A stretch of DNA of 64,000 nucleotides from Escherichia coli (GTDB lineage: Bacteria; Pseudomonadota; Gammaproteobacteria; Enterobacterales; Enterobacteriaceae), in the NCBI RefSeq assembly GCF_045037415.1, contig NZ_CP173438.1, one strand, 5' to 3'. Every line of letters starts with the position of its first letter. The first letter of the stretch is position 1. The translations under genes and the position numbers were made by a program. The notes under the pieces were generated by a model. It did no database searches and was not told the origin of the DNA. It worked only from the letters and a program-made list of their open reading frames with translations. Positions 52,774-52,868 of this stretch are shown piece after piece.

Positions 52774-52868
52774 TCTTACATAGCTGGATATGGCGTCAGC
52801 CGTATCCAGCGATATCTTTTACTCGAAGGTATTACACCTGACGGACCCGCAATTTTCAGGATAATTCA

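What the first reader, a model, noticed from the sequence alone, without database searches (positions are those of the whole stretch)
52774..52868. mazEF toxin-antitoxin module absent between relA and mazG
Seen: relA stops at 52773 and mazG starts at 52869; the 95-bp spacer contains no ORF. Established knowledge: in E. coli K-12 the mazE-mazF pair sits between relA and mazG. Inference: this strain carries the relA-mazG arrangement without the TA pair, either never acquired or cleanly deleted. No obvious scar or repeat is visible in the spacer.
Basis: partly seen in the sequence, partly recalled or inferred. Interest (0 to 1): 0.45.

Follow-up and report, generated by a model that had tools for sequence, protein, structure and literature searches.

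The report
Ancestral empty relA–mazG junction, no mazEF
This E. coli strain (its spacer matches ST131-named genomes) lacks the mazEF toxin-antitoxin pair between relA and mazG because it carries the older, unoccupied form of that junction, a common and already published variant found in about 18% of complete E. coli genomes.

Summary
relA ends at 52773, mazG starts at 52869, and the 95-bp spacer holds no ORF and no MazE/MazF homologue.

It is ordinary and already published. 1006 of 5426 complete E. coli genomes (18.5%) have this empty junction, including CFT073, Nissle 1917, JJ1886 and ST131-named strains. 4419 carry mazEF there. The two sets do not overlap, so mazEF has not moved elsewhere. 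Reviews already state that mazEF is absent from CFT073 and that relA and mazG are adjacent where it is missing.

The spacer has a 12-bp-stem hairpin (52783-52810) followed by a T-run. This hairpin is orthologous to the REP-type palindrome found just after relA in cryptic Escherichia, Citrobacter and Kluyvera.

The empty allele has 61 bp that the occupied allele lacks, and it has neither end of the mazEF cassette. It is therefore the ancestral-type junction, not a clean deletion. E. albertii shows what a real deletion scar looks like. In K-12-type strains, about 698 bp of cassette replaced those 61 bp.

It remains open whether this lineage always kept the empty allele or regained it by recombination. 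Flanks follow strain background, not allele.

Interest is low.

The parts
50539..52773 (+). relA (GTP diphosphokinase), stop codon TAA at 52771-52773
   Evidence: ORF list. NCBIfam NF008124 at 1678 bits, full length. The protein is identical to RefSeq WP_000226815.1 in strain SA186.
52774..52868 (+). 95-bp relA-mazG spacer with no ORF and no mazEF
   Evidence: About 595 complete E. coli genomes match it at 99% or more, and 1006 carry this allele overall.
52774..52834 (+). 61-bp segment specific to the empty allele. About 698 bp of mazEF cassette occupy this position in K-12-type strains. The right boundary is fuzzy, between about 52811 and 52834.
   Evidence: Alignments of empty and occupied alleles. 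The segment is found in 1000 of 5426 genomes, once per genome and never on plasmids.
52783..52810 (+). REP-derived hairpin: 12-bp stem GCTGGATATGGC / GCCGTATCCAGC with loop GTCA, followed by GATATCTTTT. It is terminator-like and is probably the relA 3' end hairpin.
   Evidence: Terminator scan and fold z = -5.8. Its position is conserved in cryptic Escherichia, Citrobacter and Kluyvera, with compensatory changes in 3 of 7 outer pairs.
52811..52833 (+). Second, weaker predicted hairpin (GATATCTTT / GAAGGTATT) that overlaps the T-run
   Evidence: Seen only in the minimum-free-energy fold. Not tested further.
52835..52868 (+). 34-bp pre-mazG segment shared by empty and occupied alleles. It contains the mazG Shine-Dalgarno AGGA (52858-52861) and a weak promoter-like match (52838-52865) that overlaps it.
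   Evidence: Alignments, haplotype table and promoter scan.
52869..53660 (+). mazG (nucleoside triphosphate pyrophosphohydrolase)
   Evidence: ORF list. NCBIfam TIGR00444 at 419 bits and NF007113 at 370 bits. RefSeq WP_001071631.1 in SA186.

Best explanation
The 95-bp spacer is the ancestral-type, unoccupied relA-mazG junction. relA is followed by a single-copy hairpin derived from a REP-type palindrome, then by the mazG ribosome-binding site. In K-12-type E. coli, a cassette of about 698 bp (mazE promoter/operator, mazE, mazF and a short tail) sits in place of 61 bp of this spacer, hairpin included. The window matches ST131-named genomes of phylogroup B2 (the phylogroup is from my own knowledge). 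It carries the allele that never held the cassette, and the strain has no K-12-type mazEF anywhere. This is a common, published presence/absence polymorphism. Functional consequences are inferred, not shown. Without the cassette, mazG lacks the autoregulated mazEF promoter. It must then be transcribed mainly by read-through from relA across the hairpin, which probably acts as a partial terminator or a 3'-end stabiliser for relA mRNA.
For: Gene identities and the spacer are established. There is no MazE/MazF in the window. The empty and occupied alleles share sequence up to the relA stop and again from 34 bp before the mazG ATG, and differ completely in between: 61 bp against about 698 bp. Population counts are 1006 empty and 4419 mazEF, which sum to 5425, the number of genomes with this locus. 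A concatenated query gives a union of 5419 = 1000 + 4419, so no genome has both the empty-specific segment and the cassette, and there are no plasmid copies. In outgroups, relA is followed by mazG with no MazE/MazF match in any of the fetched loci that hold both genes, from Enterobacterales to Vibrionaceae and Alteromonadales, and most gaps are short. Two Escherichia genomes that represent other GTDB species clusters have the same 95-bp allele. Citrobacter and Kluyvera have a palindrome at the same place, and 3 of its 7 outer pairs show compensatory changes. E. albertii keeps about 50 bp of the mazE promoter region and about 40 bp of post-mazF sequence with no genes, which shows what a true deletion scar looks like. 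The window has neither. The K-12 occupied allele has no plus-strand terminator-like hairpin after relA or after mazF. Published support: relA-mazG are adjacent where mazEF is absent (PMC7167474), and mazEF is absent in CFT073 (PMC6343021). CFT073, Nissle 1917 and JJ1886 are among the empty-allele genomes.
Against: REP elements are repetitive and can insert independently, so the similarity to Citrobacter and Kluyvera palindromes could in principle be convergent rather than orthologous. Their conserved position, a few bases after the relA stop, argues against that. The right junction is fuzzy: 52811-52834 has weak similarity to the post-mazF tail. The terminator call is a consensus match only. 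The T-run starts 6 nt after the stem and can pair into a second hairpin. A published review describes the empty state as an 'undisturbed bicistronic operon'. Whether this particular lineage kept the empty allele continuously cannot be told from these data.
Confidence: 0.9

Rival explanations
1. Allelic replacement. An ancestor of this B2 lineage carried mazEF and lost it when homologous recombination in relA and mazG brought in the empty allele from another strain. The allele is ancestral, but the lineage did once have mazEF.
For: Flanks follow strain background, not allele. The window differs from mazEF-positive B2 strains NC101 and APEC O1 at only 4-5 of 1397 relA sites and 1-3 of 792 mazG sites. 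It differs from other empty-allele strains at 21-23 and 14-30 sites. The B2 cassette differs from the K-12 cassette by about 1.4%, similar to the flank divergence of 1.3-2.1%, so the cassette looks old within E. coli, B2 included. The E. albertii remnant suggests the cassette is at least as old as the genus-level splits.
Against: The same pattern is expected if the empty allele was retained vertically and the flanks were homogenised by recombination, or if the B2 mazEF-positive lineages were the ones that switched. No recombination breakpoints were mapped. The relA stop codon is TAA in the window, CFT073 and both cryptic Escherichia genomes, but TAG in all occupied alleles. That fits an old linkage between TAA and the empty allele.
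Confidence: 0.3
2. Clean in-situ deletion. mazEF was excised from a K-12-like occupied junction in this lineage, leaving the spacer.
For: Only the gene order: relA and mazG are intact and adjacent.
Against: The spacer contains 61 bp, including a 28-nt hairpin, that are absent from occupied alleles. It contains none of the 77-bp relA-mazE interval and only the last 34 bp of the mazF-mazG interval. The hairpin is shared with outgroup species that have no mazEF. The E. albertii locus shows that an actual deletion leaves the cassette ends behind.
Confidence: 0.03
3. mazEF is not absent but lies elsewhere in the genome, on a plasmid, or was lost through an assembly gap.
For: Only 64 kb of this genome is available here, so the rest of this exact strain cannot be read.
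Against: Across 5426 complete genomes, those with the empty-specific segment and those with the cassette are disjoint (union 5419 = 1000 + 4419). There are zero plasmid hits and one copy per genome in nearly all cases. About 595 complete, independently assembled genomes match the junction at 99% or more. This DNA-level search would not detect distant MazF/PemK-family paralogues such as chpB or plasmid pemIK, which are different modules.
Confidence: 0.02

Closest known systems
relA-mazG junction of E. coli CFT073, Nissle 1917 and JJ1886/ST131 (mazEF-negative strains)
   Same: The same 95-bp spacer with the same hairpin. The 63-nt empty-specific segment is 100% identical. Records named ST131 match the whole spacer at 100%. 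The absence of mazEF in CFT073 is published (PMC6343021, citing Norton and Mulvey 2012).
   Different: Nothing of substance. CFT073 differs at 2 positions in the 34 bp before mazG.
relA-mazEFG operon of E. coli K-12
   Same: The same flanking genes, the same relA protein (WP_000226815.1) and the same 34 bp with the ribosome-binding site in front of mazG.
   Different: K-12 has 731 bp between relA and mazG, holding the mazE promoter/operator, mazE and mazF. It has no plus-strand hairpin after relA. The window has 95 bp with a hairpin and no cassette sequence.
E. albertii relA-mazG spacer (L007), a mazEF deletion scar
   Same: No mazE or mazF genes between relA and mazG.
   Different: It is 261 bp long. 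It keeps the mazE promoter/operator region and the post-mazF tail, with multi-copy REP/BIME sequence in between. The window keeps no cassette ends. No complete E. coli genome has this scar allele.
folA-apaH site of the ccdO157 toxin-antitoxin system (Mine et al. 2009, as cited in PMC7167474)
   Same: A chromosomal intergenic site that holds a TA module in some E. coli strains and REP sequence in others, according to the review.
   Different: A different locus and a different TA family. It was not examined here and is known only from the review's statement.

Membership tests
mazEF (ChpA) type II toxin-antitoxin module | MazE antitoxin ORF (about 82 aa) | tested here: not met
   tblastn of MazE against the window found no hit at E <= 1e-5. 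There is no ORF in the spacer.
mazEF (ChpA) type II toxin-antitoxin module | MazF endoribonuclease ORF (about 111 aa) | tested here: not met
   tblastn of MazF against the window found no hit. Empty-junction genomes carry no cassette DNA anywhere.
mazEF (ChpA) type II toxin-antitoxin module | Promoter/operator palindrome region upstream of mazE, or any remnant of the cassette ends | tested here: not met
   The window spacer does not align to the relA-mazE interval. Only the last 34 bp before mazG are shared. E. albertii, by contrast, retains both ends.
REP (repetitive extragenic palindromic) element | Imperfect palindrome of the GCCGGAT...ATCCGGC type in an extragenic position at the 3' end of a gene | tested here: met
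   The window has GCTGGATATGGC-GTCA-GCCGTATCCAGC nine bases after the relA stop. It aligns with GCCGGATAAGGCG...CGCCATCCGGC palindromes at the same place in Citrobacter and Kluyvera. The CCGG to CTGG and CCGG to CCAG changes are compensatory.
REP (repetitive extragenic palindromic) element | Many near-identical copies dispersed in the genome | tested here: not met
   The 63-nt segment occurs exactly once per genome. It is therefore a diverged, single-copy REP derivative rather than a current family member. The REPs in the E. albertii scar hit about 34 places per genome.
Intrinsic (rho-independent) terminator | G+C-rich stem-loop followed directly by a U-run | tested here: inconclusive
   The consensus scan calls it, with 12 pairs, 7 of them G-C. 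However, the four consecutive T's begin 6 nt after the stem and can pair into a second hairpin.
Intrinsic (rho-independent) terminator | Demonstrated transcript 3' ends at the site | not testable with these tools
   This needs Term-seq or 3' RACE in a mazEF-negative strain.
Known RNA family (Rfam) | Match to a curated covariance model | tested here: not met
   No Rfam match at E <= 1 in 52600-53000.

The most novel reading that the evidence does not exclude
The relA-mazG junction may be a long-lived presence/absence polymorphism that crosses species boundaries. The mazEF cassette would be at least as old as the E. coli / E. albertii split, judging from the albertii scar and from a cassette divergence that matches the flanks. 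Yet the ancestral hairpin allele still persists in 18.5% of E. coli and in cryptic Escherichia clades. Alleles would move between backgrounds by short-patch homologous recombination. This could point to balancing selection, for example defence benefit against toxin cost, or a difference in how relA and mazG are coupled in transcription with and without the hairpin.
Probability: 0.3. Interest if true: 0.3.

Novelty: already known. Interest (0 to 1): 0.1.

Why it matters
It matters little beyond correct annotation. It confirms that mazEF is accessory in E. coli and is missing from major extraintestinal pathogenic lineages: ST131-named genomes, CFT073 (ST73 by my own knowledge) and the probiotic Nissle 1917. 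Functions claimed for mazEF from K-12 work therefore cannot be general to the species. Three details here may go beyond what the reviews I could read state. The empty allele carries a conserved REP-derived hairpin, so 'undisturbed bicistronic operon' may be too simple. The cassette is a replacement of 61 bp, not a pure insertion. E. albertii holds a true deletion scar. These are incremental points.

Tried and rejected
- **Rfam:** a scan of 52600-53000 at E <= 1 found nothing.
- **Insertion hotspot idea:** I looked for other TA modules in species with unusually long relA-mazG gaps: Superficieibacter L019, Photobacterium L064, Pectobacterium L042 and Limnobaculum L049. ORF lists showed no recognisable TA pair, only small hydrophobic or His-rich ORFs. 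I did not run profile searches on them. The 'recurrent hotspot' idea is therefore not supported by my data. The review (PMC7167474) reports parDE at this site in Salmonella, but the S. arizonae locus fetched here has only a 74-bp gap.
- **E. albertii scar in E. coli:** the query was swamped by REP/BIME copies (171,334 places), and no genome covered 80% or more of it. The scar allele is therefore absent from complete E. coli genomes.
- **Promoter-like match at 52838-52865:** I rejected it as a mazG promoter. Its -10 hexamer ends 3 nt before the ATG and overlaps the Shine-Dalgarno. The same match exists in the occupied K-12 allele.
- **A34 relA distances:** the values (about 390 differences) are an artefact of a 3-nt length difference in an ungapped comparison, and I ignored them.
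- **Primary papers:** Fiedoruk et al. 2015 and Ramisetty and Santhosh 2016 are not held in the library. What they say is known only through citing reviews.
- **Phylogroup survey:** a full survey was not possible because the collection carries no phylogroup labels. I used named reference strains and flank haplotypes instead.

Full report
**Observation.** The window is E. coli: a 1-kb stretch across the site matches 5425 of 5426 complete genomes. relA runs from 50539 to 52773 and mazG from 52869 to 53660. rlmD and barA lie upstream, and pyrG and eno lie downstream. The 95 bp between relA and mazG hold no ORF. tblastn with MazE and MazF finds nothing anywhere in the 64-kb window. A K-12 RefSeq record confirms the order relA-mazE-mazF-mazG-pyrG.

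**Anatomy of the spacer.** The terminator scan calls it. The 95-nt spacer folds at -33.3 kcal/mol with z = -5.8, and no shuffle out of 200 folds as well. Rfam has no match. The last 34 bp (52835-52868) carry the mazG Shine-Dalgarno AGGA. A weak promoter-like match overlaps that ribosome-binding site, and I do not regard it as a mazG promoter.

**Empty versus occupied allele.** I aligned the window and three other empty-junction strains against NC101, which carries mazEF. The alleles are collinear up to the relA stop codon and again from CACCTGACGG, 34 bp before the mazG ATG. Between those points the empty allele has 61 bp of its own, hairpin included, and the occupied allele has about 698 bp: the mazE promoter/operator, mazE, mazF and a short tail. 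The right boundary is fuzzy, because 52811-52834 has weak similarity to the post-mazF tail. This is a replacement, not a pure insertion or deletion. The empty allele is not 'occupied minus cassette'. The occupied K-12 allele has no plus-strand terminator-like hairpin after relA or after mazF.

**Frequency.**
- The empty-specific 63-mer occurs in 1000 of 5426 complete genomes, once each and never on a plasmid. These include CFT073, Nissle 1917 and JJ1886.
- The mazEF cassette occurs in 4419 genomes.
- A concatenated query returns a union of 5419 = 1000 + 4419, so the sets are disjoint. No empty-junction genome has a K-12-type mazEF anywhere.
- With the whole spacer as query and a strict E-value, 1006 genomes have the empty junction. 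1006 + 4419 = 5425, the number of genomes that have this locus at all.
- About 595 share the window's haplotype (0 or 1 mismatch in 101 bases), including records named O25b:H4-ST131 and ST-131.
- 20 kb of the window is 100% identical to many human clinical isolates.

**Polarity.** A MazG-seeded scan of one genome per species returned 80 loci. In every locus that contains both genes, relA is followed by mazG with no MazE/MazF match. This holds from Citrobacter, Salmonella arizonae, Kluyvera and Enterobacter out to Pectobacterium, Vibrio and Rheinheimera, and most gaps are 60-130 bp. Two Escherichia genomes that represent other GTDB species clusters have the same 95-bp allele. One of them shows paired changes that keep the stem intact. 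Citrobacter and Kluyvera carry a REP-type palindrome at the same position, a few bases after the relA stop. In an 8-sequence alignment, 3 of the 7 outer stem pairs keep pairing through changes on both sides. The empty allele is therefore the ancestral-type junction, and its hairpin is a diverged, now single-copy REP derivative.

**What a real deletion looks like.** E. albertii has a 261-bp gap with no mazEF. It keeps about 50 bp of the mazE promoter/operator region right after relA and about 40 bp of post-mazF sequence before the shared 34 bp. Multi-copy REP/BIME sequence lies in between. The window has neither cassette end, which rejects an in-situ clean deletion. No complete E. coli genome carries the albertii-type scar.

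**History of this lineage (unresolved).** Flank haplotypes follow strain background rather than allele. The window differs from mazEF-positive B2 strains NC101 and APEC O1 at 4-5 of 1397 relA sites and 1-3 of 792 mazG sites. It differs from other empty-allele strains (CT30, KE47, O139:H1) at 21-25 and 14-30 sites. The B2 cassette differs from the K-12 cassette by about 1.4%, similar to the flank divergence of 1.3-2.1%. Together with the albertii scar, this suggests both alleles are old and have been moved between backgrounds by homologous recombination. Whether the ST131 line always had the empty allele or regained it cannot be decided here.

**Mechanism (inferred).** In this strain relA mRNA probably ends at, or is stabilised by, the REP-derived hairpin. 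With no autoregulated mazEF promoter in front of it, mazG must depend on read-through from relA. In K-12-type strains the cassette removed the hairpin and added its own promoter/operator. That fits the published relA-mazEFG co-transcription (PMC6343021, PMC5120126). None of this was measured.

**Literature.** PMC7167474 states that in the many strains lacking these systems, relA-mazG form an undisturbed bicistronic operon, and that the site can hold other elements. PMC6343021 states that mazEF is present in MG1655 but not in CFT073. The finding is therefore already known. One correction: the review gives UTI89 as its example of a mazEF-less strain, but the UTI89 RefSeq record has mazE and mazF between relA and mazG.

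**Verdict.** The value added here is small: the population frequency, the ancestral polarity, the hairpin and the albertii scar.

Noticed in passing
L007:2240-2500 (E. albertii NBRC 107761): The relA-mazG gap of 261 bp is a mazEF deletion scar. The mazE promoter/operator-like left end and the post-mazF right end are retained, and REP/BIME copies fill the middle. This implies the cassette was once present in the E. albertii lineage.
   Followed up: partly
L091:25214-25797 (E. coli UTI89, NC_007946.1): UTI89 is annotated with mazE and mazF between relA and mazG. This contradicts the review PMC7167474, which names UTI89 as an example of a strain lacking mazEF. CFT073 is a correct example.
   Followed up: yes
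NZ_CM129852.1 (E. coli SW07163), hits H30 and H110: The relA end maps at about 997,759 and the mazF half of the cassette at about 1,018,132. The cassette therefore appears to be split within mazE by an insertion of about 20 kb. Its nature was not examined.
   Followed up: no
window 52771-52773: The relA stop codon is TAA in the window, CFT073 and both cryptic Escherichia genomes. It is TAG in all occupied alleles examined and in the non-B2 empty alleles. This may mark an old linkage between the stop codon and the empty allele.
   Followed up: partly
window ~58893-64000 (minus strand): A sucrose utilisation cluster (LacI-family regulator, sucrose-6-phosphate hydrolase, sucrose PTS IIBC, carbohydrate porin) lies next to queE. 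UTI89 has ygcE/yqcE-type genes at that position instead. This is an accessory island near the finding.
   Followed up: no
window ~14001-16917: Type VI secretion genes tssB and tssC lie beside a pair of tRNA-Met genes, by transfer of the SA186 annotation. This is a typical tRNA-associated island.
   Followed up: no
L019:1551-2500, L021, L064:1117-2482: Superficieibacter (gap of about 940 bp, with a 112-aa hydrophobic ORF) and Photobacterium angustum (gap of about 1380 bp, with small Cys- or His-rich ORFs that have signal-like N-termini) have unusually long relA-mazG gaps. No TA-like pair was recognised there.
   Followed up: partly
L056 and L057 (Affinibrenneria salicis NZ_VYKJ01000001.1): The two loci have mirrored coordinates (76451-82233 reversed, and 992896-998678 on a 1,075,128-bp scaffold) and identical statistics. 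They look like the same locus listed twice, not a duplication.
   Followed up: no
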